32,000 nt of DNA from Geobacter metallireducens GS-15 (lineage in GTDB: Bacteria > Desulfobacterota > Desulfuromonadia > Geobacterales > Geobacteraceae). This document shows, piece by piece, positions 815 to 25,691 of this stretch (positions are counted from its first letter, which is position 1; the number at the start of each line of letters is the position of its first letter). The position numbers were made by a program, and so were the translations under genes. The notes beneath the pieces were generated by a model that searched no databases, had not been told where the DNA came from, and saw nothing but the letters and a program-made list of their open reading frames with translations. The DNA is taken from the NCBI RefSeq assembly GCF_000012925.1, contig NC_007517.1:630001-662000 (forward strand). The letters are read 5' to 3'.

Positions 815-2149
815 ATGACGGGTAACGATCTCATGCAACGCCTGGCTTCGCGGCGTGTTTCCCTGACGCTTATCCTGATGCTCCTCTGCATATGCGTCAT
901 CGGCGCATTGGTCCCCCAGAAGTCGACCCTGGAGCCGGAGAGCTATGCCGCATGGGTCGCAGCCGGAGGGGTCCACGATCTCTGGCTGAAGCTCGGATTT
1001 ACCCGCATTTTTTCAACCTGGTATTTTCTCGCGGTCATGATCCTCTTCTTCGCCAGCACCCTCGCTGCGACGATAATACGCGCCCGGGGCCTGCTGAGAC
1101 GGGAGAAGCCGGAGCCGAGCGCCGCAGCCATGGTGGGGGAGCCCTTTTCGACAACGGTTTCCGGCGTACCGCTGGAAAAGTTGAAATTGCGGGTTTCGGG
1201 CTTTTCCTGGCACGAAGGGCTCTGTGCTGACGGCAGATACCTTGCCGGCACACGCTTCGGGATCGCACGGTGGTCCGTCGTGTCGCTCCACCTGTCGTTG
1301 CTGTTGCTCATCCTCGGCGTTCTCGCGAGCCACGCCACCTATTTTCGCGGCTATATGAAGCTGGGAGTGGGGCAGAGTGAACAACTCGACGAATCGGGCT
1401 TTTTCCAGCAGGACAGGGGGATGTTTGCCCCGGCTCTCCCGCAAGGGCTCAAGATCACGCTTCTTTCCTTCGATAACCGGTATCGGGAAGCGGGTTATCT
1501 CCCCGACATTGCGGCGGATTTTCTGCTGGAAGGCGCAGCCGGAGGCCCCCTCAGGACGAGGCTCCTCCGCTCCGGGATGGTATCCTATGGTGGGCTCGAC
1601 CTCTATCTCTCCGTCCGTCGTGGCTTCGGGGTCATCCTCCACACGGTGCGCCGGGACGGTGGGCGGGCATCGGGCTACGTTAATTTCAACTTTCCCGAGG
1701 GGGGGAAAACTCCCCGGGTCCAAGCCGAAATACCCGGTTCCAATGCGCAGGTTGACGTTGAGTTCCTCTCCCGCAACCGCAGGTACGACGACTTGGCCGG
1801 GATTGCAGCACCGGCAATCCGGATGAGATTCATGCGAAACGGAGGCGTCGTTGCCGAGCGCCTCCTTCGTCCCGGTGAGGGAACGGTAGTGGAAGGGATC
1901 AGCTATACGTTCGGGAAGATAGACTACTGGTGCGACATCGCCGCCACGCGTGATCCCGGCATTTATCTCATTTACGCCGGCTTTGCCGCCGCCGCCCTGA
2001 CCCTGGTCCTTTTTGCGTTCTTTCCGACCGCGGAAATCCGGCTTCTGGGGGCAGGGGGGACGGACTCCGTTCATGTCGCTGTCCGGTGCGAGCGGTTCAG
2101 GTCGGTGGCCGAGCGGATCCTCGAACAAATCACGGAGGAAAGAACCTGA
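815..2149 (+). CDS. ccsB: ResB/CcsB (Ccs1)-family cytochrome c biogenesis protein, System II, copy 1
   Basis: 444-aa ORF. The N-terminal ..RRVSLTLILMLLCICVIGALVPQK.. matches the ResB TM1 '..G..IPQ' signature. A second TM (FSTWYFLAVMILFFAS), an H-containing TM (SLHLSLLLLILGV), a large soluble middle region and a C-terminal TM follow. AAAGGAAA RBS about 10 nt upstream. The stop overlaps the start of the next gene (ATGA). Confidence 0.8.
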   Translation: MTGNDLMQRLASRRVSLTLILMLLCICVIGALVPQKSTLEPESYAAWVAAGGVHDLWLKLGFTRIFSTWYFLAVMILFFASTLAATIIRARGLLRREKPEPSAAAMVGEPFSTTVSGVPLEKLKLRVSGFSWHEGLCADGRYLAGTRFGIARWSVVSLHLSLLLLILGVLASHATYFRGYMKLGVGQSEQLDESGFFQQDRGMFAPALPQGLKITLLSFDNRYREAGYLPDIAADFLLEGAAGGPLRTRLLRSGMVSYGGLDLYLSVRRGFGVILHTVRRDGGRASGYVNFNFPEGGKTPRVQAEIPGSNAQVDVEFLSRNRRYDDLAGIAAPAIRMRFMRNGGVVAERLLRPGEGTVVEGISYTFGKIDYWCDIAATRDPGIYLIYAGFAAAALTLVLFAFFPTAEIRLLGAGGTDSVHVAVRCERFRSVAERILEQITEERT

Positions 2150-2958
2150 TGGACGTCATTTTTTTCTGGATAGCGACAACACTTTATGCCCTGTCGGCGG
2201 TGCTGTACCTGATCCACTTCATCTTCGACAAAAAGTGGGGCGAGAAGGGGGCGGCGGCGCTGGCGGCAGGGGGGATCGTGCCCCACGTGGCTGCCGTCGC
2301 CATGCGCTGGGTGCAGGCCGGACACGGTCCCTACATCACCCGTTACGAGGTTTTTTCATCCGATGCGCTCATCGCGGTTGCAGTCTTCCTCGCGGCCGGC
2401 CTTTTGTACCGGAAGATCAGGGTCGCGGGGGCGATCGTCATGAGCGGAGCCTTTCTGATGATGGGATACGGTGCCCTGTCGGTGGATACCAAGGCTGCGG
2501 CGCCGATCACCTTCAAGAGTTGGTGGTTGGTCATCCACATCCTGTTCGGCAAGGTTATCACCGGAGCCATGCTGATTGCGGGGGCGCTTGCCGTCTTCTA
2601 TCTCTTGAAGAGCAAACGGCCCGAACGCTGGCCAAGACTTCCTGACGTGGCCTCGCTCGACGACCTCTCGTACCGCTTTCTGTCACTGGGCTTCTGCGCT
2701 CTGGGGCTGATGATCGTCGCCGGTTCCATCTGGGCCAACAGCGCATGGGGGCGATACTGGGGGTGGGATCCCATCGAAACGTGGTCTCTCATCTCCTGGA
2801 TAACCGTCGGCGCCATACTCCACCTGCGTCGTCTCCACGGGTGGCGTGGCAGAAGGATGGCCTGGCTCACCATTGCGGCACTTCTTCTCGCCATATTCAC
2901 CGCCTTCCTTATCACCATTGTCAGCCCCGGCATTCACAGCAGTTACATGGTCAAATAG
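2149..2958 (+). CDS. ccsA: CcsA/ResC cytochrome c-type biogenesis protein (heme-handling WWD protein), copy 1
   Basis: Trp-rich WWD motif WGRYWGWDPIETWSLISW followed by HLRR, plus a TM His (WWLVIHILFG). The in-frame ATG at 2149 overlaps the ccsB TGA (2147-2149). The track ORF start at 2086 lies inside ccsB and is unlikely to be used. Confidence 0.9.
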   Translation: MDVIFFWIATTLYALSAVLYLIHFIFDKKWGEKGAAALAAGGIVPHVAAVAMRWVQAGHGPYITRYEVFSSDALIAVAVFLAAGLLYRKIRVAGAIVMSGAFLMMGYGALSVDTKAAAPITFKSWWLVIHILFGKVITGAMLIAGALAVFYLLKSKRPERWPRLPDVASLDDLSYRFLSLGFCALGLMIVAGSIWANSAWGRYWGWDPIETWSLISWITVGAILHLRRLHGWRGRRMAWLTIAALLLAIFTAFLITIVSPGIHSSYMVK

Positions 2959-3228: not shown

Positions 3229-3444
3229 GTCAGGTAATTGGACGTTACCGCTCCGGCGGTTTATGTGTAGGGTGCTGGAGGTATAACCGTAAGCATCCAA
3301 GCGTGTTAACCTGTGATGGGCTGTAAATGGATTCCAGTCTTTGAGGCCGAATTAACAGTGGTTTGACAGGCTGGTGTCATAATTTTGCTTTTTTTGAACG
3401 TCTGGACGTTGTTGTGCTCATCATGATTTGACGTGGGGGAAGTC

Positions 3445-6054
3445 ATGGGTACGGAGAATAGAACGAAACGAACCTCTGGTGCAGTACCAGTGCTGGTTGC
3501 CTTTGCGGCTTCGATGGCGCTGGTACTCTTCGTTTTGTGCGGTACGACCCCTGTCCACGCTGGAACCATCACCAGCTGTTCCGGCTGTCACGGCATGCCG
3601 CCGGCGGACGCCGCCTTCCGCAACATCTCCACCGGCGGCTTTGCCGGCAATCACGGTACCCATCTCGGCGCTTCCGCCAGTGCCGGCGACTGTACCAGGT
3701 GCCACAATAATTCCGGTTATCTCAACAGCCACCGGGACGGCAAAATTCAGCTGGCGTCCAATATCAATACCTCGCCGGCTCCCGGCGGCGGCCTGTACAA
3801 GGTATCCGGATCGGCAGTCACCTTCTGGAACCAGACGTCCATTCCGGTCCCCGGGTCATGCAGCAACGTCAACTGCCACTTCGAGGCGGCAACTCCCCTG
3901 TGGGGCTCCACGGCGTTCACCTCTCCGGCCGATTGCAATAAATGTCACGGCGCCCCGCCAAGTGGCGGAACATCGGGCGCGGCCGGCAGCCACTCCCGGC
4001 ACGACCAGTACTATGCCGGTGTCGCCAACTGCCAGAAGTGCCATTCAAACAATACGACCTTCCAGCATGCCACCAGCGCCGGGCATCGCAATCTGAACAT
4101 CAGCTTCGCCGCCGCCCCCAACAACGGCAGCGGCGTCTATTCCGGCCCCCTCAATGATTACCTGCCGAGCCAGATCAATGGGTTCGGCACCTGCACCAGC
4201 CTCTACTGCCACAGTAACGGCCAGAAAAGCATGGGCAACTTCTCCACCGTCACCGTACCGACCTGGGGAACCCCCCTGCCGGCCAACTGCACGGGGTGCC
4301 ACAGGTCCAACAACGCCTCCGGCAACGCCATGGCCACCGGCAGCCATAAACGGCACGTGGGTACTGATTCGCAAGGTTATTCAAACAACATAGCCTGTGC
4401 AAAGTGCCATGCCGCCACGGTCAACGGCACCATGGCCATTGCGGACACCACCGTCCACGTCAACGCCAAGGTTAATATCAAGTTCAACAGCCTCACCACT
4501 GCCGTCAACGGCACCTATGGGGGCCAGGCGACCCCCTATGCCAAGGATCCTGGCACCGCTTACGGCCAGTGCAACAATGTCTACTGCCATTCGAACGTCC
4601 AGAACGACGGCGGGGTCGGCATAACCTACCGGCAGCCCACGTGGGGCAATGGGGCGAGCGGCACCTGCGGCACCTGTCACGGCGGCGGCAACCACTTTAT
4701 GGAGGCTGATATTGCGACCGGCAGCCATACCAAGCATCTGTCATCGACAGCGACTCCCTATACCATGGCGACACGCTGCATAGTCTGTCACAACGTCGGC
4801 GGATTGCCGTTCAACGGCAGCTGCAACAATTCGTGCCATAGCGGGCTATCGCGGCACACTGACGGGAAGATAGACCTTGCGTTCCCGTCCAATTTCGGTG
4901 CTACGGCGGCCTACAACGGCACCCCGAGGCCGGGCAACGGCTACAGCACCTGCTCCAACGTCAACTGCCACTACAGCACCACCACCCCGACCTGGGGAAC
5001 GTCGACCCCCATCGGCTGCCTCGGCTGCCACACCCTTGCCGTGCTGCGGGCCAGCGGCGCCCATGCCAAGCATATCAGCGCCACCGCCTCGCCGACCATG
5101 TACAACTACACCGCCAACCGCTCCACGGCGACGGAATACGACTTCGGCTGCTCCAACTGCCATCCTGTCACCGCAACGGGCAATCACTACAATTCGGTCA
5201 TCAACGTGACCCTCAAGAAGGATGAGGCCGGGGTGGGCTCCCTGCGCGCCAAAAACAGTGCCACGGCGGTCGGCGTCAACGTCGCCAACAGCGGCATCAC
5301 CGGCACAACCAAAGTCAGCATCAGGTGCTCGATGGCCTACTGCCACAGCAACGGCAACGCCGCCGGCCTGGTCTACGCCACCACGCCGGACTGGTACGGC
5401 GGCAGCTTCACCGGCGACCGCTGCGCCAACTGCCACGGCAACGCCCCCAACACCACCATTGCCGGTTCCAAGTCCCACTACAACAACCGCTTCCTCGGCT
5501 ACACCAGCAACCCGGGGGGGCACCAGATTGCAATCCATGCCATGGGGATCTACAGCAGCCCGAGCGGCCTGGCCAAGGCGGGCACCGGCAATGACAGCAG
5601 CCACGGCAATGCCGCCACATCAACAACCATCGGCTGCAATATCTGCCACTACCTGACGGTCACCACCGCCCGCAACGATGACAACTTTGTCTGCAAAACC
5701 TGCCACTATGCCGGCAATACCGTGGGCGCCCTGGCCGGAAACCCGGCCGCCATCGCCGACCGGTCGAAGCACGTCAACGGAACGGCCGATGTGGCGTTCC
5801 AGCCGGTTACCGTGCTTTCCAAGGCGCAGATGCGGCAGATCTACTTCACGTCATACAGCGGCACCTTCAAGCGCAACGGCGTGTACAAGACCTCCGGCGC
5901 GTACGACTCCGCCAAGGCAGCGCTCAACACGGCAACCATGTGGGACGGCGGCAGCAAGACCTGCTCCAATGTCGCCTGCCATAACAGCCAGAGCGTGAAA
6001 TGGACCGATAATGACGGCGCGACAACGTGTGTCAATTGCCATAACGCCATGTAA
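3445..6054 (+). CDS. Secreted multiheme c-type cytochrome with repeated CxxxxCH...CxxCH units (Geobacter-type domain)
   Basis: Signal peptide (..VPVLVAFAASMALVLFVLCGTTPVHA|GT). Manual count gives 14 CxxCH, 6 CX4CH (CSNVNCH, CTSLYCH, CNNVYCH, CSNVNCH, CSMAYCH, CSNVACH) and 1 CX3CH (CNNSCH). The ATG at 3445 is preceded by GGGGGAAG; a GTG at 3433 is an alternative start. Confidence 0.9.
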   Translation: MGTENRTKRTSGAVPVLVAFAASMALVLFVLCGTTPVHAGTITSCSGCHGMPPADAAFRNISTGGFAGNHGTHLGASASAGDCTRCHNNSGYLNSHRDGKIQLASNINTSPAPGGGLYKVSGSAVTFWNQTSIPVPGSCSNVNCHFEAATPLWGSTAFTSPADCNKCHGAPPSGGTSGAAGSHSRHDQYYAGVANCQKCHSNNTTFQHATSAGHRNLNISFAAAPNNGSGVYSGPLNDYLPSQINGFGTCTSLYCHSNGQKSMGNFSTVTVPTWGTPLPANCTGCHRSNNASGNAMATGSHKRHVGTDSQGYSNNIACAKCHAATVNGTMAIADTTVHVNAKVNIKFNSLTTAVNGTYGGQATPYAKDPGTAYGQCNNVYCHSNVQNDGGVGITYRQPTWGNGASGTCGTCHGGGNHFMEADIATGSHTKHLSSTATPYTMATRCIVCHNVGGLPFNGSCNNSCHSGLSRHTDGKIDLAFPSNFGATAAYNGTPRPGNGYSTCSNVNCHYSTTTPTWGTSTPIGCLGCHTLAVLRASGAHAKHISATASPTMYNYTANRSTATEYDFGCSNCHPVTATGNHYNSVINVTLKKDEAGVGSLRAKNSATAVGVNVANSGITGTTKVSIRCSMAYCHSNGNAAGLVYATTPDWYGGSFTGDRCANCHGNAPNTTIAGSKSHYNNRFLGYTSNPGGHQIAIHAMGIYSSPSGLAKAGTGNDSSHGNAATSTTIGCNICHYLTVTTARNDDNFVCKTCHYAGNTVGALAGNPAAIADRSKHVNGTADVAFQPVTVLSKAQMRQIYFTSYSGTFKRNGVYKTSGAYDSAKAALNTATMWDGGSKTCSNVACHNSQSVKWTDNDGATTCVNCHNAM

Positions 6055-6151
6055 CCGGTAAGGTATGCGCTTCGTACAGGGGGGAGGTGTTTTTGCCCCT
6101 GTACGTCGTAACAAAGTAACGGACTTTCCAGCACTGAACGAGGGAACTTAT

Positions 6152-9100
6152 ATGGGAACGACAATCGCCAGGCAGATCAGGAGCATGGGGCTGCGGACTA
6201 AAATCGGCATCATTGTGATGCTGGTCGTGGGCTGTTTCCTGTATCAGATCATGTTCAAGCCGATGATTGGCGATACAGCCACCCAGACCTATTATTTCAC
6301 CACTGATTCCACATCGGTGAACCTCGGCGCCGATGGCAGCACCAGCACCGCGGCGTCGCTCGGCGGCAAAATATCCATGAAGGTCGGTGTCTATGCCTTC
6401 TCCCGCAGTGTCAGCGCCGCGTCCAATACCTCCGAACAGAGGATGATCAGCGCCTATGGGCCGGTCTATGCCGCCAAGCAGACCATTAACGCGCCTGCCG
6501 TCACGATCGGCGTGAGGGACCGCAACGGCACCGCAAATGCCATTTACTGGAAGGCCTACGTCTACGCCTATAACCCGGCGGTGGCCCCCGGCACCGGCAA
6601 CCCCACGGCTACCGGTGCCGCCAATAACGCGAGATTGCTCTGGACATCGGACGAGATGGAGGCCCATCCCTCGGTGCAGACGCCGCTGGACATGACCTTC
6701 ACCAATCCTGCACTGCAGACCATAGATGCCGGACAGCGGATCAAGGTGGTCATCACCGCCCGCCTGGCAAGTACCGCCTCGTCGGCCCGCCTCTTCTGGG
6801 GGGGCGGAAGCAACTATTCGTTCTTTACCGTCACCGAAGCCCCCTATGTGGCTGATTCGGTTACCGTCTCAAACCTGGCCGATTACTATGCCGGCGGTCT
6901 CACCTCCGTCACCCAGGGGGACACCAATGTTCCCATGCTTAGATTCGACCTGTACACCAACGTGGCCGGGGGGGTCAACTGGTCGGGCGGGCTTCTGGAT
7001 AAGATCGGCACCAATACCAGCGTCCTCAACCCCCTTCTGCCGGTGGACGAACCGGGAGACGTCTCCTTTTCGATCTACCGGGATGCCGATAATGACGGCG
7101 TCTTCGAACCCACCGACACCCTGATCGGCGGACCATACAATTTCAGCCAGTTGACCAAACAGGGGTATTCGTTGCCGACTCCGGAAGCACTTACCGCCAC
7201 GCCCCGGCGCTATTTCATCACTTACACCATTCGCAAGAACGCGACCTATAACACCACTGTCGGCGCCCGCATTGTGGATGGCAGTTATTTCACCGTCGAC
7301 GCCGCGGCGACGAACGGCGTGCGAAATGTGACCAGCACGTCGTCCTCAACGCCCCTCATCCAGTATGGGGGCACCCCGGTCGTCAAGAACTACGCGGCGG
7401 ACTGGGATGCCGGCACGTCACTGACGAACATCGCCGAAACCGGCGGGCCGGGCTCCACAACCTCCACCTGTATTACCAGAACCACGGCAGGGTCGGCATT
7501 CCCGCTGGTCGGCCTGCTCAACTACCCCAACCACTCTTGTGCCAGTGTGGCGGGGCAGAACTACAGCAACACCAGCGGCAGCACCCAGCCGGATTTCGTC
7601 AGGCTCTATTTCAGCGGGGACGGCTACCACTCCGATATGCTGTCCATCAAGGGGCGCAGTTTTACCTACCGGCTCTATACCCCGTCAGGCGGCGGCACGG
7701 TCACCCTGCAGATGTTCTACGTCACCAGCGGGGGCGTGCGGGTTAATGCCCCGATTGCATCGACCTACAAATCCACCGGTACTCTCAGCCAGACCATTAC
7801 CACCTCCCTGTCCGGTCAGGATTTTTCCAATGTCCCCCTTGGCGCCCGCCTCGGCATCCAGATCGGCGTCACCGCCAATGCGCAGATCGGCCTCGGCGGC
7901 GCGGTCGGCGCCCAACTGCAGGTGGAGGAAACGGCGGCCCTGAATGAAAACGTCGATGTGGGCGACGGTTTCCCCAGTGTCAATGCCAACGTCTATGCGG
8001 GCGACACCAGCAAGGTGATCGATTCGTTCACCTTGAGCGCTTCCAAGGCAAAGACCGTCTCTTCGATTTCGATCAAGGGCAACCCCCTGTTCAACAGCAC
8101 AAATATCAAAAATGTCTGGATTTATCAGGACAACTCGACCGGCGGCATGCTTGGGGCCCTTGACGGCACCGACACCCTGATCGGGTCCACCTCCGTAATC
8201 ACCGGCAACGTCGCGACGGTTTCGGTCGGCAGCCTGGCCATCGACAACAAGACCAAGCGATTCCTGGTGGTCGTCGATATCGGCGACACCCCCAACACCA
8301 ACGTAATCCTGAACGCTCTGGTCAGTGACCTGGCGGTTGTCACTTCCGGCACCATCGGCGAGAACAGCGACAGTTCGTCGGCGAATCTGACGATCCTGCC
8401 GACCACGACGGTGAGCGGCGGCACTGCCGAGCCTCCCGGCGTGATCGTTCCTTCCGGCGCCGGCGCCACCAAGCTGGATGCGTTCAATCTTGCCACCAAC
8501 GGCGGGGTCAACGACACGTTCTCCAGCGTCACGGTCACGCTTTCGACGACCAGCACCCTGCCCGCGGGCAAGGTCATCTCCGACTACGTTGCGCGGCTTG
8601 ATATCATCAAGGCTGACGGCACTTCCTTCGGGCACCTGACTTCTCCCACCCAGGTCAATAACTGGCAGGTCACGACCACCGGCCTGGCCGCCACCACCAC
8701 GCCCACCGATTATTACGTGGCCGTTACTCCCAAGGCGGGCCAGGGGATTACCTACGACGTCAAGGCCCAGGTTGTCTCGGTGGTCCACTCCAGGACGACC
8801 AACCGGCTGCTGCTGAGCGACCCGTCCAGCGCAACGGTCATCATGGACCAGCAGCCGCCGACCGACCCGACCCTGACTGTCGCCACCGGCACCTATCACA
8901 ATGATATTGACCGCGCCGAGATCAACCTGAACTGGACCACCGCGACCGATACCAGCGGGAGCGCGGTCAGCTACGTTGTCGTGCGTGGCCTGGGGAATGC
9001 GCCGCCGCCACGCAATTGCACGGTGGACAACGTAAAGACCTTCCCGGTTTACTCCGGCACGGGCACATCACTTATCGACAAAAACCTGGATGAAGGCATT

Positions 9101-12100
9101 TCGTACGGCTACCGCGCCTGTGCGGTGGACTCGGTCAACAACGTCAGCGTGGGAACCGCCGGCAGCGCCATCGCCAGTATCAAGAACAGATGTACGGAGC
9201 TTCCCTCACTTGAGATCAATCCCAATGCCTCATACATCAAGGCCGGCAATACGCTGGGCCTGGATGTCGCCATCACCAGCAACGACACGGGCGTCTGTGC
9301 GGCAACCACCTACACGCTCTCGATAGTGGGCACCGACATCGACGACAGCAACTACACCGTCTCCACATTCAGCGGCAACAACTTCATAATCCCGACCATG
9401 GGGTCGCAGTATACGAAGCTGAACATTACCGCGAAGCCCGGCGCGGTTCAGGGGGCGGTCAAGACCTTCCAGGTGAAGGTCGCCAAGAGCTCCGGCGGAG
9501 AAACCCTGCACGCGGACCCGGTCTATGTCACGGTCAACAAATATGGCACCATGATGCACAGCAGTCTGCAACTGGGCACCACCAAGTACGGTATCTGGGG
9601 GAAGAATTACGACTGCGCCACCTGCCATTCCCCCACCGCCACCAATATCAAGCAGGTCAAAAACAGCATCGCCACCCCGACCGGTAACCGGCCGGTCGTG
9701 TTCAATATTCTCTCCACCGCTTCCAGTGCCAATGTGGCTGGTGTTTTCGGCAATGACCACAGAAGCGGGACAGCCACCACCAATGTGTGCGAAGTCTGCC
9801 ACCACAATGCGCGTTTCCACCAGTACAGCTCGTCGAAGGTGACCTGGAAGGACCATAACAACAACGAAGACTGCATGAAGTGCCACTCGCACAAGCTCGG
9901 TTTCAAGACGGTGGCGCAGGCGGGGTCGTGTACCGACTGCCACGGCTATCCCCCCACCATCAAGGAGCAGCTGGTGGTGCCGACGACCAACGTGCTCTCC
10001 TCGTATGCAACCAATGCCGGCTCCCATGGCAAGCACAACGACCGCGGCCTCAAGTGCCAGGCCTGCCACAGCAACGGCAACCACCTGGTCACCGCCGTAC
10101 CGGACAAAAACATCAATATGGGGTTCAAGGTCAACGGGACCAGCTTCCCCGGTTGGTTCGGCCAATACACCACCGGCATAATGCGTTCGCTGACGCCCCG
10201 TAACGGCTATACCTTTGCGACCGCCCCGGGCACGACGGTGCAGCAGGCACCCGGCACCATAATCAACTGCAATGTCTACTGCCACGGCTGGGACGGCAAT
10301 GGCGGCTACAATACCGATCCGGCCTGGACCGGCATCAGCCAGGTCGGCTGCGGCTCATGCCATGCCGCCACCAACGACCAGCCCCCCACCTCCGGCAGCC
10401 ACCACAAGCATGCCAGCAATGAACCCGGTTTCGGCAACGGCATTGCCTGCAGCAAGTGCCACGGTTTCCGCAATTACTCCACCAGCTCGGCCCACATCAA
10501 CGGCAATGTGGAATGGGATCTCTCCACGCTGCCTCCCGGAACCTTCGGGCTGGCCCTTTACAGGGGCGTGGACAAGGGGAACACCGGCGCTCCGGCCCCC
10601 ACGCCGCCGGGCAGTTACGGTTCCTGCTCCAACCTTTACTGCCACAGCAATGTCCAGAGCAACAACGGCACCGGTCCCCCGACGTCCTATTCCACCCCGA
10701 CCTGGGGGGGGACGACCACCTGCAACAGTTGTCACCAGGCGCAGCCGAATGTGACCGGCGGGCATCCGCAGCATGCCGGCGCCGGCGTGACGGGCTTTGA
10801 TTGCCGCATCTGCCATGGAAACGGCGGTGACGCCAACCCGCTCAACCATGCCAACGACTACATAAACTTCCAGTTCGGCGGCCTTGCCGAGAACACGCAC
10901 TATTCCTACAGCTCGGCCAAGGTGCCCGGCTCCGCCTCCTATGGCACCTGCTACAACGGCAACTGCCACGGCTTGCGCCGTCCCAAGACCGGCCCGACCG
11001 CGCTGACCTGGGGCCCGGCCAATGACGCTATCCCGCTTTGCGACAAGTGCCACACTACGGATCCATCCCTCAAAAATGGCTTCTACAGCACCATGGGCCC
11101 CAACGGGACCACCTCGAACACGGACCCGTACGTTGGCGCCCACTTCCAGCATATCACCTCGATGCCGTTCAAGCTGTCGTCCCAGTACGATTGCTCCGAA
11201 TGCCACAACAAGCCGACCGGCCCCTACACTCCCGGCCATATCGACTCGCAGCTGCCGGCCGAGCTGACTTTCGGCGCAACCGCATCGAGCGGCGCGGTCC
11301 TGACCGGTTACACCAGCGCCCAGCACCAGCCCGGCTACAACTACGGTGCCCACCAGTGCAGCAATATCTGGTGCCACGGCTCCGGCATGGACTCCGTCGA
11401 GGGGACCGGCCTCTACGGTTCCGCCGTGAGCGACGGAGCCACCCCCAATGCCAGCCGGATCGCCTCGCCGGTCTGGAATGCACCGTTCCTGAACGGTACC
11501 ACCGCCGACTGCAACAAGTGTCACGCATCACCGCCGCCGGCACCGCTCCCCGGATACAATCACTGGGACGATGACAACAGCCGCCCCTACCAGGCCAACC
11601 AGTGCATCAATTGCCACAAGCATGTCAATGCGGCCGGCAACGGCTTCACCAAGCCGGAAATCCACGCCAACGGCGTTGTCGACAGCTGTCTGACCTGTCA
11701 CGGCCTCCCGCCGACCGACAACAGCATGACCAACCCGCCGATTAATGCCCTGAGTGCCGGCATGACCGGCGCGCACCAGGGGCATTTCCTGAACCCGAAT
11801 ATCGGCAAGCGCTGCACTTTCTGCCACTACAACAATTCCGGCGACATGCCCAGCTACAAGCTGGAGATCGGTTTCAACGCCTTTGGCGGCAAGGTCCGCC
11901 GCGGAACGTTCTACGGCTACTCCACCCTGACCAACAGCTATTCCCAGCCGATTGTCTACTTCGCGACCATCACCAGCACCACCGTGCGGCGGACCACGAA
12001 CACGGCCAAGCTCAATACCTGTGAGAACGTGTACTGCCACGGTGGCGGCTCGGGCGCGGCCCTGCCACCATTGGGGGGCGGCAGCAACACCAAGCCGGAC

Positions 12101-14803
12101 TGGGAGCTGGGCTATACCGAGGCCACCTGCGGCAGCTGCCACGGCGTGACCGGCGAAACCTACCGGACCAGGGGGTCCCATGGCGCCCATGTGGGCACGC
12201 TCTTTGGCGAGCCGAAACTGGCCTGCTCCAACTGCCACGGCGTCAAGGAGAACAACTACCACGTGAACGGCCAAGTGGAGTGGGAGTTCTACACCTCCGC
12301 CAAGCGGATGAACCAGATTGCGGTCAACGACAGCTTTAAAGACAGCCTCGGCAATGTTGTCGTTCCCGGCTACAAAGCCGCCGGCGCCTCGTCCTTTGCG
12401 GCCAAAGGCGGCACCGGCAACCTGGCGCCCAGCGCCGCGTACGGCACCTGCCAGGTCTACTGCCACAGCGACGTTTACGATCACCAATTCAAGGCGATCA
12501 CCTGGGGTAGCGGCGCCACCACCTGCAACTCCTGCCACCGGGACCAGACCTCGGCCGGCAGGTACACCGGCGCGCACCAGAAACATACCGCCAGTTCGGC
12601 CAACGGAGGCTACGGCATCGACTGCGTCATGTGCCACTACGGTTCCGGCGCCGGCAACCCGCTCCATGTGAACGGCACGGTTGACATCATCTTCAACTCG
12701 TCAGTGGTCGGTCCCAATGGCGTGTATGCACCCGGCGCCACCGAAGGGACCGGTACCTGCAAGAATATCCTCTGCCACGTTTCCGACGCAACCACCGGTC
12801 CGGCCTGGAACGGCGGATCTGCCAGCGGCAGCTATGCCACTGGCACCAACAAGCCGACCTGCATCGGCTGCCACAGCGGCGAGGTCGGCGGCCGCACCGC
12901 GGTTATCCCGCAGTTTGCCGGCGCGTCGCACCACGTCCAGGGTGTAACCATGAGCGCCACCTACTGCTACCCGTGCCATATGGAGGCAAACGCCGACGGC
13001 ACCGCCAATGCCACCTACCATGACCGGACCACCGGCAAGTCGGTTGATCTGGTGCTCTATGGCAACGGCACGCGCGGCACGGTCTTCACCAGGTACACGG
13101 CCGCGGGAAGCGCTACCCGCAAGCGGACGGAATACGCCAAGATCAACAACGTCTGCATCGGCTGCCACAGCACCAAGAACAATGCCACAACGCCCTTCAG
13201 CGCCAGCGGCGATACCAGGACACCCAAGACCTATGCCTGGGACAACAGCAGCATCTTCAACCGGTACAGTTCCACCGCCACCACGCTGTGGGGCAAGGTC
13301 ACCGGCAACGACACGGTGAAGAAGGGGCTTAACAAGGCCTTCTCCGCCCATGGCAATGCCAGCGGCAACCAGCGCGGCTGGGCGTTCGGCTCCTACACGG
13401 GCGGCCCGAAACACAGCAACACCAGCGGCGCCGTCAACAATGTGCTCTGCTTCGACTGCCACAACTCCCACGGCACCGTGGCCAGCGGCATCATGACCAG
13501 CTACTCCAGCGCCACGGGCCGCTACAGCGGCGGCATGCTCAAGACCACCGTCCAGGGGGTCGGCGGCTACAACTCCACCTATGCGCCGGTGGCAGGCGGC
13601 GATTCGGCCGCGCCCAACAGGAACGCCTACAACACGGGTGCGTCCCTCTGCTTCGACTGCCACAACAACAAGACGTCCAATACCTCCATGCCGTGGGGCT
13701 ACAATGACACCTTCGGCTCCAACCAGCCCATCTACGGCTTCCATGACAAGCCGTACTTCGGCAACTACTCCACCTTTGCCATGACGGTCACCTATCCGTA
13801 CAAGGCCAGCAACCCTGGCAACAAGGGGGGCCACTACGGCCCGTCGTCACCGCTGACCACTGCCGTCACCCAGCGGACGTTCGCGAACGGCATCAAGGAC
13901 AATCCGTACTCGGCCGGGGTTTCCTCGCCCATCAACGGCCTCTGTACGCCGTGCCACGACCCCCATGGCGTCAGCAAGAACACGACCTATGTGAGCGACC
14001 GCAACTACGGCGTGCCGCTCCTCAAGGGGACCTGGGTCACCTCCCCCTACCGGCAGGATTCGGCACCGCGGAACACCAACGAAGCCCGGGGCGGCAGTAC
14101 CCATTCATCGTCCTATGTGCCCATTACCGTCGGCAGCACGCCCCGGTACTTCATCGACCAGAACAGCATGCAGGCGGGAACGGTGGGCGAACCGACGACC
14201 GCCCGGTCCTGGACGTTCACCACTTCCGCCGCGACACTGCAGACCACGGCCGATACCCAGTTCGCCGGGCTCTGCACCGGCTGCCACAACAAGTCGGTGC
14301 TCAACAACACGGCGGCGGTGACCGGTGCCCCCGGTTCGACCGGAAGCTGGAAAGCCATGACCCGGATCCACAACACCGTCGATGGCTGGGCACTCACAAC
14401 GGGCAGCGGCGGCAACGTGAGCAACAAAGTGCATGCCTTCACCTGCTCCAAGTGCCACACGCCCCACAACGCCCGGCTACCACGGCTCATGGTGACCAAC
14501 TGCCTCGATGCCAAACATCGCGGCGGGGTGGCTGCCGGCGGGAATCCGGTGGAGTACTCGAAATGGTATCAGAGCGGGGCCGGCAAGGGACGGTTCCCTG
14601 TAGGCGGCGGCGGGTTCAAGTCCCGTGGCTCGGCGATCAACCCGGGGACCTGGTTCTTCGGCAAGTCCCAGAGCACGGTCCAGAACGCGGCGCCGGCACT
14701 GACCCTGACCACCCAGACCCAGTGCCACAACACGGCAACAGCCGGTGGCATAACCTACACCAACTACACGACGCAGCACTGGAACAACAAAACACCGTGG
14801 TAG
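6152..14803 (+). CDS. Giant (2,883 aa) putative lipoprotein: adhesin-like beta-rich N-terminal region fused to a 34-site multiheme c-type cytochrome
   Basis: Single uninterrupted ORF. The ATG at 6152 has a GAGGGAA RBS 5 nt upstream. Lipobox LVVG-C has its Cys codon at 6233-6235. Up to the first heme motif (CATCH at 9614-9628) there are no heme-binding motifs and only a few isolated Cys; this part is T/S/N/G-rich and includes an FN3-like segment (about 8849-9185). After that I count 27 CxxCH, 5 CX4CH and 2 CX3CH. Confidence 0.9.
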   Translation: MGTTIARQIRSMGLRTKIGIIVMLVVGCFLYQIMFKPMIGDTATQTYYFTTDSTSVNLGADGSTSTAASLGGKISMKVGVYAFSRSVSAASNTSEQRMISAYGPVYAAKQTINAPAVTIGVRDRNGTANAIYWKAYVYAYNPAVAPGTGNPTATGAANNARLLWTSDEMEAHPSVQTPLDMTFTNPALQTIDAGQRIKVVITARLASTASSARLFWGGGSNYSFFTVTEAPYVADSVTVSNLADYYAGGLTSVTQGDTNVPMLRFDLYTNVAGGVNWSGGLLDKIGTNTSVLNPLLPVDEPGDVSFSIYRDADNDGVFEPTDTLIGGPYNFSQLTKQGYSLPTPEALTATPRRYFITYTIRKNATYNTTVGARIVDGSYFTVDAAATNGVRNVTSTSSSTPLIQYGGTPVVKNYAADWDAGTSLTNIAETGGPGSTTSTCITRTTAGSAFPLVGLLNYPNHSCASVAGQNYSNTSGSTQPDFVRLYFSGDGYHSDMLSIKGRSFTYRLYTPSGGGTVTLQMFYVTSGGVRVNAPIASTYKSTGTLSQTITTSLSGQDFSNVPLGARLGIQIGVTANAQIGLGGAVGAQLQVEETAALNENVDVGDGFPSVNANVYAGDTSKVIDSFTLSASKAKTVSSISIKGNPLFNSTNIKNVWIYQDNSTGGMLGALDGTDTLIGSTSVITGNVATVSVGSLAIDNKTKRFLVVVDIGDTPNTNVILNALVSDLAVVTSGTIGENSDSSSANLTILPTTTVSGGTAEPPGVIVPSGAGATKLDAFNLATNGGVNDTFSSVTVTLSTTSTLPAGKVISDYVARLDIIKADGTSFGHLTSPTQVNNWQVTTTGLAATTTPTDYYVAVTPKAGQGITYDVKAQVVSVVHSRTTNRLLLSDPSSATVIMDQQPPTDPTLTVATGTYHNDIDRAEINLNWTTATDTSGSAVSYVVVRGLGNAPPPRNCTVDNVKTFPVYSGTGTSLIDKNLDEGISYGYRACAVDSVNNVSVGTAGSAIASIKNRCTELPSLEINPNASYIKAGNTLGLDVAITSNDTGVCAATTYTLSIVGTDIDDSNYTVSTFSGNNFIIPTMGSQYTKLNITAKPGAVQGAVKTFQVKVAKSSGGETLHADPVYVTVNKYGTMMHSSLQLGTTKYGIWGKNYDCATCHSPTATNIKQVKNSIATPTGNRPVVFNILSTASSANVAGVFGNDHRSGTATTNVCEVCHHNARFHQYSSSKVTWKDHNNNEDCMKCHSHKLGFKTVAQAGSCTDCHGYPPTIKEQLVVPTTNVLSSYATNAGSHGKHNDRGLKCQACHSNGNHLVTAVPDKNINMGFKVNGTSFPGWFGQYTTGIMRSLTPRNGYTFATAPGTTVQQAPGTIINCNVYCHGWDGNGGYNTDPAWTGISQVGCGSCHAATNDQPPTSGSHHKHASNEPGFGNGIACSKCHGFRNYSTSSAHINGNVEWDLSTLPPGTFGLALYRGVDKGNTGAPAPTPPGSYGSCSNLYCHSNVQSNNGTGPPTSYSTPTWGGTTTCNSCHQAQPNVTGGHPQHAGAGVTGFDCRICHGNGGDANPLNHANDYINFQFGGLAENTHYSYSSAKVPGSASYGTCYNGNCHGLRRPKTGPTALTWGPANDAIPLCDKCHTTDPSLKNGFYSTMGPNGTTSNTDPYVGAHFQHITSMPFKLSSQYDCSECHNKPTGPYTPGHIDSQLPAELTFGATASSGAVLTGYTSAQHQPGYNYGAHQCSNIWCHGSGMDSVEGTGLYGSAVSDGATPNASRIASPVWNAPFLNGTTADCNKCHASPPPAPLPGYNHWDDDNSRPYQANQCINCHKHVNAAGNGFTKPEIHANGVVDSCLTCHGLPPTDNSMTNPPINALSAGMTGAHQGHFLNPNIGKRCTFCHYNNSGDMPSYKLEIGFNAFGGKVRRGTFYGYSTLTNSYSQPIVYFATITSTTVRRTTNTAKLNTCENVYCHGGGSGAALPPLGGGSNTKPDWELGYTEATCGSCHGVTGETYRTRGSHGAHVGTLFGEPKLACSNCHGVKENNYHVNGQVEWEFYTSAKRMNQIAVNDSFKDSLGNVVVPGYKAAGASSFAAKGGTGNLAPSAAYGTCQVYCHSDVYDHQFKAITWGSGATTCNSCHRDQTSAGRYTGAHQKHTASSANGGYGIDCVMCHYGSGAGNPLHVNGTVDIIFNSSVVGPNGVYAPGATEGTGTCKNILCHVSDATTGPAWNGGSASGSYATGTNKPTCIGCHSGEVGGRTAVIPQFAGASHHVQGVTMSATYCYPCHMEANADGTANATYHDRTTGKSVDLVLYGNGTRGTVFTRYTAAGSATRKRTEYAKINNVCIGCHSTKNNATTPFSASGDTRTPKTYAWDNSSIFNRYSSTATTLWGKVTGNDTVKKGLNKAFSAHGNASGNQRGWAFGSYTGGPKHSNTSGAVNNVLCFDCHNSHGTVASGIMTSYSSATGRYSGGMLKTTVQGVGGYNSTYAPVAGGDSAAPNRNAYNTGASLCFDCHNNKTSNTSMPWGYNDTFGSNQPIYGFHDKPYFGNYSTFAMTVTYPYKASNPGNKGGHYGPSSPLTTAVTQRTFANGIKDNPYSAGVSSPINGLCTPCHDPHGVSKNTTYVSDRNYGVPLLKGTWVTSPYRQDSAPRNTNEARGGSTHSSSYVPITVGSTPRYFIDQNSMQAGTVGEPTTARSWTFTTSAATLQTTADTQFAGLCTGCHNKSVLNNTAAVTGAPGSTGSWKAMTRIHNTVDGWALTTGSGGNVSNKVHAFTCSKCHTPHNARLPRLMVTNCLDAKHRGGVAAGGNPVEYSKWYQSGAGKGRFPVGGGGFKSRGSAINPGTWFFGKSQSTVQNAAPALTLTTQTQCHNTATAGGITYTNYTTQHWNNKTPW
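9614..12778 (+). repeat. Protein-level array of about 7 degenerate heme-binding units (CxxCH .. HxxH .. CxxCH .. H-x-N-G .. CX3-4CH .. W-G) inside the giant gene
   Basis: The motif order recurs through this segment, for example CGSCH..GSHHKH..CSKCH..HINGNVEW..CSNLYCHSN..TPTWG, then CNSCH..GGHPQH..CRICH..CYNGNCH, and so on. The repeat is visible in the protein only; the DNA copies are diverged. Confidence 0.7.
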
Positions 14804-15132: not shown

Positions 15133-16167
15133 ATGCTGAACAAATGTTTGTTGCTGACCGGTGCCCTGATTGCCGTGCTGACCGCCCCCCTGGCCGCTCC
15201 GGCCTACGAATACGACCAGGAGCAGACCCGGAAGCTGATCGAGAACATGGTCAGGGACCTCGGCGGGCATGACGGCCTGCGCGCGAACAGCGGTAAAGTC
15301 ATGCGCTGCGTCCATGGCGGCACGAAAAAGGTGACCATCGTTCAAAACGGTGCGCTGACGACCTACAACGGGGTGTACAGCAACTGCCGCGAAAATGATT
15401 CCATCAGGGACGGCATTTACGACATCGCCCTCGAAGGAAATGAAGTCACCGTCAGTTCCTCAAAACGCTCCATCAACGGTGAACTGTTCGATGCCGCCAT
15501 GGGGGGTGACGCGAAAGCCGTCAAAAGATTGGTCAAGGCCAAGGCCGATGTCAATTATACGGAAAGCATCAAGAAAAGCGGCGGCGGTCACATCGACGAG
15601 TGGACGCCGCTCATGTCGGCTGTGGCCTCGGGAAGCCTGGATTCCGTGAAGCAGCTGGTCACCGCGGGGGCCTGGGTCAACTACATGAACAGCATGGCCG
15701 TGAACGCGCTCTGGATCGCCGCCAATAAGGGCGATGTCGCCATCGTTAAATATCTCCTGAAGTCGGGCGCTTATGTCAATAACCGGAACTTCGAGGATGT
15801 CACGCCGCTCATGGCGGCTTCCATGAACGGGCATGGGGAGGTGGTTAAAGCCCTGATCGCCGCCCGGGCAAAGCTCGATTACGTCCACAGCGGGGGTGAT
15901 ACCGCCCTGATGTTCGCCCTGGCAGGCAGGCACACGGCTGTGGCGCGGCTCCTGCTGGCTGCCGGCGCTGATGTGAACGTGAGGAACCGCGACGGACTCA
16001 CGGCCCTGCACATCGCCGTGTCGGAAGGGAATCTGGAGATGGTGCGCGGGCTTCTGAAACGTAAGGCCGATGTGTCGGCCACAATGGACAGCGGCAAGAA
16101 CGCGCTGGATATAGCCCGAGCCAGGGGAAATGCCGCCATCGTGGAACTGCTGGAAAAGGGACGATAA
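15133..16167 (+). CDS. Secreted (periplasmic) ankyrin-repeat protein
   Basis: Sec-type signal peptide MLNKCLLLTGALIAVLTAPLAAPA|YE. After a 110-aa N-terminal domain there are about 7 tandem 33-aa ankyrin repeats (..TPLMSAVASGSLDSVKQLVTAGAWVN.., ..TPLMAASMNGHGEVVKALIAARAKLD.., ..TALHIAVSEGNLEMVRGLLKRKADVS..). GGAG lies 7 nt upstream of the ATG. Confidence 0.9.
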   Translation: MLNKCLLLTGALIAVLTAPLAAPAYEYDQEQTRKLIENMVRDLGGHDGLRANSGKVMRCVHGGTKKVTIVQNGALTTYNGVYSNCRENDSIRDGIYDIALEGNEVTVSSSKRSINGELFDAAMGGDAKAVKRLVKAKADVNYTESIKKSGGGHIDEWTPLMSAVASGSLDSVKQLVTAGAWVNYMNSMAVNALWIAANKGDVAIVKYLLKSGAYVNNRNFEDVTPLMAASMNGHGEVVKALIAARAKLDYVHSGGDTALMFALAGRHTAVARLLLAAGADVNVRNRDGLTALHIAVSEGNLEMVRGLLKRKADVSATMDSGKNALDIARARGNAAIVELLEKGR

Positions 16168-16168
16168 C

Positions 16169-25613: not shown

Positions 25614-25691
25614 GATGCTTGTGACGATGATACGTGGTGCCGGATGGCGATGCGATGAGCCCTGTTATTTATCCTTGGCGGATTTCGAATC

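What the first reader, a model, noticed from the sequence alone, without database searches (positions are those of the whole stretch)
3577..6042. Periodic three-site heme grammar interleaving canonical CxxCH with CX4CH/CX3CH sites
In the 869-aa cytochrome, and again at 9614..12778 in the giant gene, the same ordered unit recurs about 6 to 7 times each. The unit is CxxCH(G-x-P-P) .. G-[SA]-H-x-[KR]-H .. CxxCH .. H-x-[ND]-G-x-[IV]-x-[LF] .. C-x4-C-H(SN) .. [TP]-x-W-G. This matches the CxxxxCH...CxxCH domain type first noted in Geobacter sulfurreducens proteins, whose structure and heme stoichiometry are, as far as I know, undefined. Together the two proteins carry 55 candidate heme sites, 14 of them non-CxxCH. 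The invariant HxxH and HxNG motifs could supply distal ligands, implying a rigid and repetitive heme-stacking module.
Basis: partly seen in the sequence, partly recalled or inferred. Interest (0 to 1): 0.7.

Follow-up and report, generated by a model that had tools for sequence, protein, structure and literature searches.

The report
Known Geobacter CxxxxCH/CxxCH multiheme cytochromes
The repeating heme-site pattern is real, but it belongs to two already-annotated Geobacter metallireducens cytochromes (Gmet_0580, and Gmet_0581, an OmcN homologue) of a long-curated family that strings three-heme modules into long electron wires and still has no solved structure.

Summary
The window is Geobacter metallireducens GS-15. 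Gene A (3445..6054) is Gmet_0580, with 21 heme motifs. Gene B (6065..14803) is Gmet_0581, with 34 motifs; it is a lipoprotein and an OmcN homologue. That gives 55 sites, 14 of them Cx3-4CH, in 6 + 7 ordered units.

Both proteins match the curated CxxxxCH/CxxCH cytochrome domain (TIGR01904/PF09698), so the family is already known. The heme counts 21 and 34 are already in the literature.

What I could add:
- The "2-2-4" spacer grammar tiles the whole family. Some members carry 108 sites as (2-2-4) x ~35. A 2-2-2-2-4 variant reaches 151 sites.
- Each three-motif unit has almost exactly three conserved non-proximal His, and each five-motif unit about five. This argues that the Cx4CH sites bind bis-His heme.
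- Proteins end right after a Cx4CH...CxxCH pair. The order HxxH-CxxCH-H-Cx4CH-CxxCH is colinear with cytochrome c7/c3, but only weakly similar to them.
- Covariation predicts a strong contact between the G-x-H of the HxxH motif and the W-G loop. It also predicts packing between neighbouring units.

No solved structure matches by sequence or by fold. The ligand wiring and true heme occupancy remain untested. Interest is modest.

The parts
3445..6054 (+). Gene A = Gmet_0580 (ABB30823), 869 aa from the ATG at 3445 (an alternative GTG lies at 3433). Secreted CxxxxCH/CxxCH-domain c-type cytochrome with 21 heme motifs.
   Evidence: Exact-sequence look-up; TIGR01904 E 4e-57; motif count; listed as a 21-heme cytochrome in PMC10989804.
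3565..3921 (+). A unit 1 (residues 45-163 counted from the GTG): CSGCH, H74xxH77, CTRCH, H100, CSNVNCH, PLWG.
   Evidence: Unit alignment; His positions.
3922..4275 (+). A unit 2 (residues 164-281): CNKCH, H187xxH190, CQKCH, H212 (invariant in orthologues, while H218 is not), CTSLYCH, PTWG.
4276..4653 (+). A unit 3 (residues 282-407): CTGCH, H305xxH308, CAKCH, H342, CNNVYCH, PTWG.
4654..5004 (+). A unit 4 (residues 408-524): CGTCH, H421, H432xxH435, CIVCH, an extra CNNSCH (Cx3CH, nt 4822-4839), H475, CSNVNCH, PTWG. This unit has four hemes.
   Evidence: In orthologues the extra site is CxxCH, Cx3CH or Cx4CH.
5005..5409 (+). A unit 5 (residues 525-659): CLGCH, H544xxH547, CSNCH, H585, CSMAYCH, PDW.
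5410..6042 (+). A terminal irregular block (residues 660-870): CANCH, CNICH, CKTCH, CSNVACH and a final CVNCH three residues before the stop. Five non-proximal His (682, 697, 702, 724, 780) serve five hemes.
   Evidence: Most listed family heme-site strings end in ...2-2-2-4-2.
6065..14803 (+). Gene B = Gmet_0581 (ABB30824; the annotated start is M30 at nt 6152, giving 2883 aa). Lipoprotein cytochrome c and OmcN homologue with 34 heme motifs.
   Evidence: TIGR01904 E 5e-44. The lipobox VVGC was read directly from the sequence.
6152..9613 (+). B N-terminal region of about 1,150 aa with no heme motif and no Pfam or NCBIfam match. PMC10989804 describes it as carrying a surface-associated Ig-like domain.
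9614..9943 (+). B leading hemes: CATCH (residue 1184) and a compact c7-like triheme domain (residues 1231-1293; hemes at 1242, 1270, 1289). Its last heme is also site 1 of unit B1.
   Evidence: Pfam Cytochrome_C7 best stretch 1231-1293 covers profile positions 4-66 of 67; motif list.
9917..11497 (+). B units 1-4 (residues 1285-1424, 1425-1548, 1549-1654, 1655-1811). Unit 1 has Cx3CH (CNVYCH) at the third site.
11498..11674 (+). Insert between B units 4 and 5 carrying two extra CxxCH sites (CNKCH at 1816, CINCH at 1847).
11675..12847 (+). B units 5-7 (residues 1871-2017, 2018-2149, 2150-2261). Unit 6 has Cx3CH (CQVYCH) at the third site.
12848..14800 (+). B C-terminal region with eight CxxCH sites of a different type, the 'doubled CXXCH' domain, including CxxCHxxH motifs.
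   Evidence: TIGR01905 E 2e-12 and PF09699 E 5.7e-13.
815..2958 (+). Divergent ResB-like (815..2149) and CcsA/CcsB-like (2086..2958) system II cytochrome c maturation genes, immediately upstream of gene A.
   Evidence: Pfam ResB and Cytochrom_C_asm. TIGR03144 CcsB scores 160.9 bits, below its 187.6 cut-off, and the ResB-like protein has no NCBIfam hit.

Best explanation
These are two adjacent genes, 10 nt apart on the same strand and so probably co-transcribed. They encode outer-surface multiheme c-type cytochromes of the curated CxxxxCH/CxxCH domain family: Gmet_0580, and Gmet_0581, which is an OmcN homologue.

Each periodic unit of about 110 aa covalently binds three hemes. Two are bound through CxxCH and one through Cx4CH (occasionally Cx3CH). 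Each heme is axially ligated by the motif His and by one of three conserved distal His, two from HxxH and one from H-x-[ND]. Tandem units pack against one another, so their hemes should form one continuous single-polypeptide electron wire. Gmet_0580 is a secreted 21-heme rod. Gmet_0581 is a lipid-anchored 34-heme protein with a large non-heme N-terminal region.

Shown here: family membership, the periodic grammar, the His:heme stoichiometry, the covariation contacts and the absence of a solved homologue. Inferred: heme occupancy of the Cx3-4CH sites, bis-His ligation, which His binds which heme, the rod-like geometry and the electron-transfer role.
For: Identity and family:
- Exact-sequence look-up identifies the genes and the organism.
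- TIGR01904 and PF09698 hits are above their cut-offs, with 6 and 7 stretches.
- 408 homologues have E <= 1e-10, and every named hit in the top 120 that carries a specific name is called a CxxxxCH/CxxCH cytochrome.
- The unit profile finds 4,446 clusters at 50% identity.

Grammar:
- The 13 units align in one register.
- Heme-site strings of the relatives found with gene A are (2-2-4)n followed by a 2-2-2-4-2 terminus.
- 78% of 744 distinct units read exactly HxxH-CxxCH-Cx4CH-CxxCH.

Occupancy of the Cx4CH sites:
- Every Cys of mature A lies in a heme motif.
- A has 21 conserved non-proximal His for 21 motifs.
- In 2,305 units, 97.8% have at least one His between sites 2 and 3 (76% exactly one). 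About 95% have none in the other spacers. 49 of the 51 units lacking that His have a Met instead.
- The pentaheme-period relatives most often have five extra His per five motifs.
- One extra site is CxxCH, Cx3CH or Cx4CH in different orthologues.
- In the unrelated cytochrome MmcA, mass spectrometry shows that Cx3CH and Cx4CH peptides carry heme (PMC10153276).
- From my own knowledge: tetraheme cytochrome c3 binds hemes II and IV through Cx4CH.

Defined packing:
- Mean-field DCA on 1,774 two-unit windows gives Ha-1 <-> W+1 couplings of 3.3-3.4 against a background sd of 0.19.
- It also gives inter-unit couplings of 1.1-1.7 between the Cx4CH region of unit n and the third-His strand of unit n+1.
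- An AlphaFold2 two-unit model reaches pTM 0.69.

Biology: PMC10989804 lists the proteins as 21- and 34-heme outer-surface cytochromes and reports a mild DIET phenotype for the Gmet_0581 deletion.
Against: There is no experimental heme count or heme-peptide data for any family member in the literature I could search.

The structural evidence is weak. The full-length AlphaFold2 model failed (pLDDT 33). The two-unit model is only moderate (pLDDT 67). No model coordinates were available, so heme geometry and ligand wiring could not be read out.

The His budget fixes the number of ligands but not the pairing. The invariant Cys and His residues carry no covariation signal.

The Gmet_0581 deletion phenotype is weak, so the physiological role is unclear.
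Confidence: 0.85

Rival explanations
1. The units are ordinary class III (c3/c7-type) triheme domains with long insertions. On this view the proteins are c7 polymers like GSU1996, with c7/c3 ligand wiring, and not a distinct module.
For: - When a unit is re-registered as HxxH..CxxCH..H..Cx4CH..CxxCH, the Pfam Cytochrome_C7 profile aligns end to end (positions 4-66 of 67) in 5 of 6 units tested, with E 5e-5 to 3e-3.
- The whole-protein PF14522 scores (47.7 and 79 bits) exceed the 24.8-bit cut-off.
- The Cx4CH..CxxCH core profile finds its best single-stretch PDB matches on the Cx4CH -> CxxCH pair of cytochrome c3, which I take to be hemes II and III (1gm4 E 0.0056; 1czj E 0.0029).
- hhalign aligns HxxH..CxxCH with both PpcA and c3.
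- Gene B has a genuine compact c7-like domain that shares its last heme with unit 1.
- Proteins end just after a Cx4CH..CxxCH pair.
Against: - Each per-unit score is below the Pfam gathering threshold.
- hhalign probabilities are only 9-24% and cover only about 22 columns.
- Foldseek finds no PDB match with E <= 0.001 for the two-unit model.
- Units are 106-202 aa, against about 70 aa for c7.
- With c7 or c3 wiring, the leading heme of Gmet_0580 (C49) would have no distal His, because the protein has no spare conserved His upstream.
Confidence: 0.35
2. The Cx4CH and Cx3CH sites do not bind heme. They would form disulfides or bind a metal, so each unit holds two hemes and the proteins hold 14 and 27.
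For: There is no direct heme-occupancy data for this family. As I recall it (from memory, not checked here), the original TIGRFAM description tied heme binding to the CxxCH site of the domain and not to the CxxxxCH site.
Against: - The His after the second Cys is invariant at the third site.
- There are three, not two, conserved distal His per unit, and about five per pentaheme unit.
- Cx3CH substitutes for Cx4CH at the same site.
- CxxCH, Cx3CH and Cx4CH interchange at the extra site of unit 4 across orthologues.
- Cx3CH and Cx4CH carry heme in MmcA and, from my own knowledge, Cx4CH carries heme in cytochrome c3.
Confidence: 0.05
3. The adjacent divergent ResB/CcsA pairs are dedicated heme lyases needed specifically to load the Cx4CH sites. 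Specialised CcsA isoenzymes of this kind serve CxxCK and Cx15CH sites in Wolinella (from my own knowledge).
For: - A ResB-like/CcsA-like pair lies directly upstream of gene A, and a second pair lies at the right end of the window.
- Both are divergent. The CcsB hit is below its cut-off and neither ResB-like protein has an NCBIfam hit.
- A ResB gene follows a five-cytochrome cluster in Geomonas.
Against: - Only 9 of 79 related loci have a ResB or CcsA homologue within 10 kb.
- G. pickeringii keeps the cytochrome pair but has no ResB/CcsA pair directly upstream.
- From my own knowledge: general maturation systems can load the Cx4CH sites of cytochrome c3.
Confidence: 0.15

Closest known systems
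CxxxxCH/CxxCH domain c-type cytochromes (NCBIfam TIGR01904, Pfam PF09698), e.g. G. sulfurreducens OmcN
   Same: Both proteins are members. Domain hits are far above the cut-offs, with 6 and 7 copies. Gmet_0581 is 63% identical to OmcN. Relatives share the same 2-2-4 grammar.
   Different: Nothing differs in kind. The curated models cover only the Cx4CH...CxxCH core (36 and 73 positions). The full repeat is a triheme unit of about 110 aa with HxxH, a third His and an invariant Trp.
Class III cytochromes: tetraheme c3, triheme c7 (PpcA), and the c7-domain polymer GSU1996
   Same: HxxH precedes a CxxCH. Cytochrome c3 uses Cx4CH. The motif order is colinear. Tandem triheme modules form a wire in one polypeptide, and PMC11492766 describes GSU1996 as concatenated c7 modules.
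   Different: Similarity is weak: per-unit Pfam scores are below threshold, hhalign probability is 9-24%, and Foldseek finds nothing. Units are 1.5 to 3 times longer. The His budget of Gmet_0580 does not fit c7 wiring at the N-terminus.
MtrC/OmcA-type outer-membrane decaheme cytochromes (Pfam PF22113, domains II/IV)
   Same: Both are cell-surface multiheme cytochromes. PF22113 scores 42.5 bits (cut-off 30) on residues 165-329 of A.
   Different: There is only one stretch in one protein. Single units score 11-21 bits. The 2-2-4 periodicity and Cx4CH are not MtrC features. No structural comparison was possible.
Methanosarcina acetivorans MmcA
   Same: It has Cx3CH and Cx4CH heme-binding motifs beside CxxCH, and mass spectrometry shows these carry heme.
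   Different: It is a heptaheme protein with a different architecture, and its unusual sites are not repeated periodically.
Polymeric cytochrome nanowires (OmcS, OmcE, OmcZ)
   Same: The proposed function is a continuous heme chain for extracellular electron transfer.
   Different: Those are filaments of small subunits, each with only a few hemes. Here the chain is built by tandem modules within one polypeptide. There was no sequence or fold match.

Membership tests
CxxxxCH/CxxCH domain c-type cytochrome (TIGR01904 / PF09698) | Profile match above the curated cut-off | tested here: met
   TIGR01904 scores 189.8 and 147.9 bits against a cut-off of 27. PF09698 scores 68 and 44.8 bits against 21.7.
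CxxxxCH/CxxCH domain c-type cytochrome (TIGR01904 / PF09698) | Cx4CH followed within about 14-30 residues by CxxCH, repeated several times per protein | tested here: met
   There are 6 and 7 matched stretches. The median Cx4CH-to-CxxCH spacer is 24 residues.
CxxxxCH/CxxCH domain c-type cytochrome (TIGR01904 / PF09698) | Covalent heme at both motifs | not testable with these tools
   Only indirect support is available, from the His:motif stoichiometry.
c-type cytochrome exported to the cell envelope | N-terminal signal peptide or lipobox, with maturation genes available | tested here: met
   Read from the sequence: A has a hydrophobic N-terminus ending VHA|GT, and B has the lipobox VVGC. UniRef names B a lipoprotein cytochrome c. 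ResB/CcsA genes lie adjacent. No signal-peptide predictor was run.
Class III cytochrome c (c3/c7) | Profile match above the gathering threshold | tested here: inconclusive
   Whole-protein PF14522 scores of 47.7 and 79 bits exceed the 24.8 cut-off. Individual repeat units score 17.8-23.5 bits, below it. For PF02085 the best unit scores 22.8 against 22.9.
Class III cytochrome c (c3/c7) | Colinear order HxxH, heme, His, heme, heme | tested here: met
   The C7 profile aligns over positions 4-66 of 67 in 5 of 6 re-registered units.
Class III cytochrome c (c3/c7) | Compact fold of about 70-110 aa superposable on c3/c7 | tested here: not met
   Units are 106-202 aa. Foldseek finds no PDB hit with E <= 0.001. 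The model is only moderate (pLDDT 67), and Foldseek is probably weak on coil-rich models without heme, so this is not a strong negative.
Class III cytochrome c (c3/c7) | c7/c3 pairing of distal His to hemes | not testable with these tools
   The His budget suggests a mismatch at the leading heme of A. No coordinates were available.
MtrC/OmcA domains II/IV (PF22113) | Profile match above threshold and a pentaheme domain | tested here: inconclusive
   A scores 42.5 bits against a cut-off of 30, in one stretch at 165-329. B has no hit and single units score 11-21 bits.

The most novel reading that the evidence does not exclude
The 2-2-4 triheme unit is a structurally distinct heme-packing module. 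It would not be a c3/c7, MtrC or OmcS fold. Its distal ligands and packing would cross unit boundaries, with the Cx4CH region of unit n against the third-His strand of unit n+1. Nature would use it to build the longest single-chain heme wires so far seen, with up to about 108-151 heme sites in one polypeptide.
Probability: 0.35. Interest if true: 0.55.

Novelty: already known. Interest (0 to 1): 0.3.

Why it matters
This family is large, with about 4,400 clusters at 50% identity, and is concentrated in Geobacterales and Desulfuromonadales. It supplies some of the most heme-rich proteins known, yet none has a solved structure, a measured heme count or measured redox properties.

A defined triheme module would give a concrete construct for structural work. 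The relevant features are one distal His per heme, a predicted contact between the G-x-H of HxxH and the W-G loop, and predicted packing between units. A fragment of two or three units running from one HxxH to the CxxCH that follows a Cx4CH would be a sensible target.

It would also give a design rule for synthetic protein wires. For genome annotation, the practical message is that Cx3CH and Cx4CH sites in this family should be counted as hemes.

Tried and rejected
- AlphaFold2 on full-length mature Gmet_0580 with 33 orthologues gave an unusable model (pLDDT 33).
- Foldseek of the two-unit model against the PDB gave only spurious hits with E >= 7.
- phmmer and profile searches of PDB sequences gave nothing for the whole proteins. 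Unit profiles found only motif-level hits, to c554, reaction-centre cytochromes and c3. The 9yuq_N hit (E 0.0014) did not reappear with the core profile.
- hhalign against PpcA and c3 aligned only the HxxH..CxxCH segment.
It worked with a closer alignment of N-terminal units.
- Co-loss analysis, asking which His disappears when a heme motif is lost, had too few degenerate units (13 heme losses in 2,339 units). Two cases pair loss of the second HxxH His with loss of the Cx4CH site, which is anecdotal.
- Linkage to a dedicated heme lyase was weak: ResB or CcsA lay within 10 kb in 9 of 79 loci.
- Rfam found no riboswitch or other RNA family anywhere in the window. The promoter and terminator scan upstream of gene A gave nothing above chance.
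- P0092 had no encoding contig on record.
- Literature searches for TIGR01904/PF09698, OmcN structure and CX4CH in nanowires found no structural or biochemical study of this family.
Full report
**Observation.** The window encodes two adjacent + strand ORFs, 3433/3445..6054 (gene A) and 6065..14803 (gene B).

The quoted coordinates fall on the first and last motif residues.

Residue shuffles of the same proteins give about 0.1 (A) and 0.06 (B) of each motif type per protein. All 42 Cys of mature A lie in these motifs, as do 68 of 70 Cys in B's cytochrome region.

**Identity.** An exact-sequence look-up identifies the genes as Geobacter metallireducens GS-15 ABB30823 and ABB30824. By position in the accession series, and by the matching published heme counts, these are Gmet_0580 and Gmet_0581.

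PMC10989804 lists them as 21-heme and 34-heme outer-surface cytochromes. It states that Gmet_0581 is 63% identical to G. sulfurreducens OmcN. It reports that deleting Gmet_0581 only delayed co-culture establishment with Methanosarcina subterranea.

Both proteins match NCBIfam TIGR01904, 'CxxxxCH/CxxCH domain c-type cytochrome', with E 4e-57 and 5e-44 over 6 and 7 stretches. Both also match Pfam PF09698.

**Family-wide grammar.** I wrote each heme site as its Cys-Cys spacer length. The relatives found with gene A then read (2-2-4)n followed by 2-2-2-4-2. Of 744 distinct units in those proteins, 78% are exactly HxxH-CxxCH-Cx4CH-CxxCH, and 25 carry Cx3CH at the third site.

A unit profile finds 4,446 clusters at 50% identity with E <= 1e-3 in 1.84 billion representatives. 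The hits include:
- a 3,917-aa protein with 108 sites, tiled almost perfectly as 2-2-4 (34 non-overlapping repeats counted);
- a 5,264-aa protein with 151 sites in a 2-2-2-2-4 period;
- a 4,309-aa protein with 126 sites.

A 2024 survey cites 113 motifs as the record. A genome scan with the conserved N-terminal unit returned 79 loci, nearly all from Geobacterales or Desulfuromonadales.

**Do the Cx3-4CH sites bind heme?** There is no direct evidence for this family. The internal bookkeeping, however, is tight.
- Gmet_0580 has 44 His in the ORF as read from the GTG. 21 are motif His, 21 are conserved in orthologues, and 2 are not conserved (H42, H218).
- Across 2,305 distinct canonical units, 97.8% have at least one His between the second and third motifs, and 76% have exactly one.
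- About 95% of units have no His in the other spacers.
- 49 of the 51 units lacking the third His have a Met there.
- Trp follows the Cx4CH in 99% of units.
- Pentaheme-period units most often have five extra His.
- The extra heme site in unit 4 of Gmet_0580 is CxxCH, Cx3CH or Cx4CH in different orthologues.

Outside the family, mass spectrometry shows heme on the Cx3CH and Cx4CH peptides of MmcA. From my own knowledge, cytochrome c3 binds two of its hemes through Cx4CH. I therefore consider one bis-His heme per motif very likely.

**Module boundaries and relation to c3/c7.** Gmet_0580 ends three residues after the CxxCH that follows its last Cx4CH. Family site strings nearly always end in '4-2'. 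The curated domains span Cx4CH...CxxCH.

When a unit is re-registered as HxxH..CxxCH..H..Cx4CH..CxxCH, Pfam Cytochrome_C7 aligns over positions 4-66 of 67 in 5 of 6 units. The E-values are only 5e-5 to 3e-3, each below the gathering score. A profile of the Cx4CH..CxxCH core finds its best single-stretch PDB matches on the Cx4CH-to-CxxCH pair of cytochrome c3, which I take to be hemes II and III (E 0.003-0.006). hhalign aligns only HxxH..CxxCH to PpcA and c3, with probability 9-24%.

Gene B also carries a genuine compact c7-like domain at residues 1231-1293, whose last heme is the first heme of unit 1.

Two points argue against a simple c7 reading. First, the leading heme of Gmet_0580 has no conserved His upstream. 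With no spare His in the protein, it must take one of H74 or H77, which is not c7 wiring. Second, units are 106-202 aa long. The relationship to class III cytochromes is plausible but distant and unproven.

**Structure.** No PDB chain matches either protein by sequence.

AlphaFold2 on the full mature Gmet_0580 with 33 orthologues failed (pLDDT 33). A two-unit fragment (residues 164-420) with 57 diverse two-unit rows gave pLDDT 67 and pTM 0.69. Foldseek against the PDB returned nothing with E <= 0.001. This is a weak negative. The model lacks heme, is only moderate in confidence and is mostly coil.

The 2024 survey PMC11492766 already shows a predicted wire-like model of a 27-motif G. metallireducens cytochrome. 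Its heme-insertion script recognised both CXXCH and CXXXXCH motifs. I did not confirm that this protein belongs to the same family.

**Covariation.** I ran mean-field DCA on 1,774 two-unit windows (effective number 1,597). One outstanding coupling of 3.3-3.4, against a background sd of 0.19, links the residue before the first HxxH His to the Gly of W-G about 90 residues downstream. The pairings are S with G, A with N/T/D, and K with T/N.

Weaker couplings link:
- the segment before HxxH to the strand after the third His;
- the segment after site 1 to the segment after site 2;
- across units, the Cx4CH region of unit n to the third-His strand of unit n+1 (1.1-1.7).

The corresponding intra-unit pair scores only 0.2-0.45.

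The windows overlap, so the two halves are not independent replicates. It cannot assign ligands, because the Cys and His residues are invariant.

**Context.** Divergent ResB-like and CcsA/CcsB-like genes lie immediately upstream (815..2958). A second set lies at 29273..>32000. Downstream are genes for an ankyrin-repeat protein, a fused MFS/spermidine-synthase-like protein, TPR proteins, glycosyltransferases and two radical SAM/SPASM proteins.

G. pickeringii keeps the order cytochrome pair, a 344-aa gene at the ankyrin gene's position, then a spermine-synthase-like gene. It lacks the upstream ResB/CcsA pair. Only 9 of 79 related loci have ResB or CcsA within 10 kb. A lyase dedicated to the Cx4CH sites is therefore possible but poorly supported. 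No Rfam family is present in the window.

**Verdict.** But these are known, annotated members of a curated family in a model organism.

The contributions here are:
- the family-wide 2-2-4 (and 2-2-2-2-4) tiling;
- the rule of one distal His per heme motif;
- the end-of-protein argument for module boundaries;
- a weak colinearity with class III cytochromes;
- predicted contacts within and between units;
- confirmation that no solved structure exists in the PDB copy searched.

Novelty: already known. Interest: about 0.3.

Noticed in passing
P0126, P0127, P0133 (metagenomic relatives, not in the window): Family members carry 108 heme motifs (2-2-4 tiled about 35 times, 3,917 aa), 151 motifs (2-2-2-2-4 period, 5,264 aa) and 126 motifs (4,309 aa). 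A 2024 survey cites 113 motifs as the record. Each is known from only one or two contigs, so an assembly artefact in the repeats is not excluded.
   Followed up: partly
window 4822-4839 (gene A residues 464-469, CNNSCH): Unit 4 of Gmet_0580 has an extra fourth heme site. In orthologues its Cys-Cys spacer is 2, 3 or 4 residues, so spacer length at this site appears interchangeable.
   Followed up: partly
window 815-2958 and 29273->32000: Two divergent ResB-like plus CcsA/CcsB-like cytochrome c maturation gene sets bracket the roughly 27-kb cluster. In the second set a small lipoprotein-like ORF sits between ResB and CcsA, and the CcsA ORF (from about 31194) runs off the window end. Linkage to the cytochrome family elsewhere is weak (9 of 79 loci).
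   Followed up: partly
window 12848-14800 (gene B residues 2262-2912): The C-terminal eight-heme region of Gmet_0581 is a different module, the 'doubled CXXCH' domain (TIGR01905/PF09699). Three of its sites read CxxCHxxH (CFDCHNSHG, CTPCHDPHG, CSKCHTPHN).
   Followed up: partly
window 6152-9613 (gene B N-terminal ~1,150 aa): A large Ser/Thr-rich region without heme motifs has no Pfam or NCBIfam match. One paper says it holds a surface Ig-like domain. Its fold and role are uncharacterised here.
   Followed up: no
window 15133-18682: An ankyrin-repeat protein (344 aa) and an 850-aa fused MFS/spermidine-synthase-like protein follow the cytochrome pair. G. pickeringii has a 344-aa gene and an 850-aa spermine-synthase-like gene in the same positions, which suggests a functional link.
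   Followed up: partly
window 20373-26372: A GT9 heptosyltransferase-like gene, two radical SAM/SPASM genes, a TPR protein and a GT2 glycosyltransferase lie downstream. G. pickeringii has PqqD plus radical SAM/SPASM genes upstream of its cytochrome pair. This could be a peptide- or cofactor-maturation cassette, and no precursor was looked for.
   Followed up: no
window 11498-11674 (gene B residues 1812-1870): An insert with two extra CxxCH sites (and His 1833, 1851, 1853, 1867) lies between units 4 and 5. It resembles the extra half-unit that turns the 2-2-4 period into 2-2-2-2-4 in the giant relatives.
   Followed up: no
L016, L027, L036 (MAG labelled Nitrospirae), L020 (MAG labelled Dongiaceae): A few relatives of the N-terminal unit sit in genomes assembled from metagenomes that are labelled outside Desulfuromonadia. 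These could be horizontal transfer or mis-binning.
   Followed up: no
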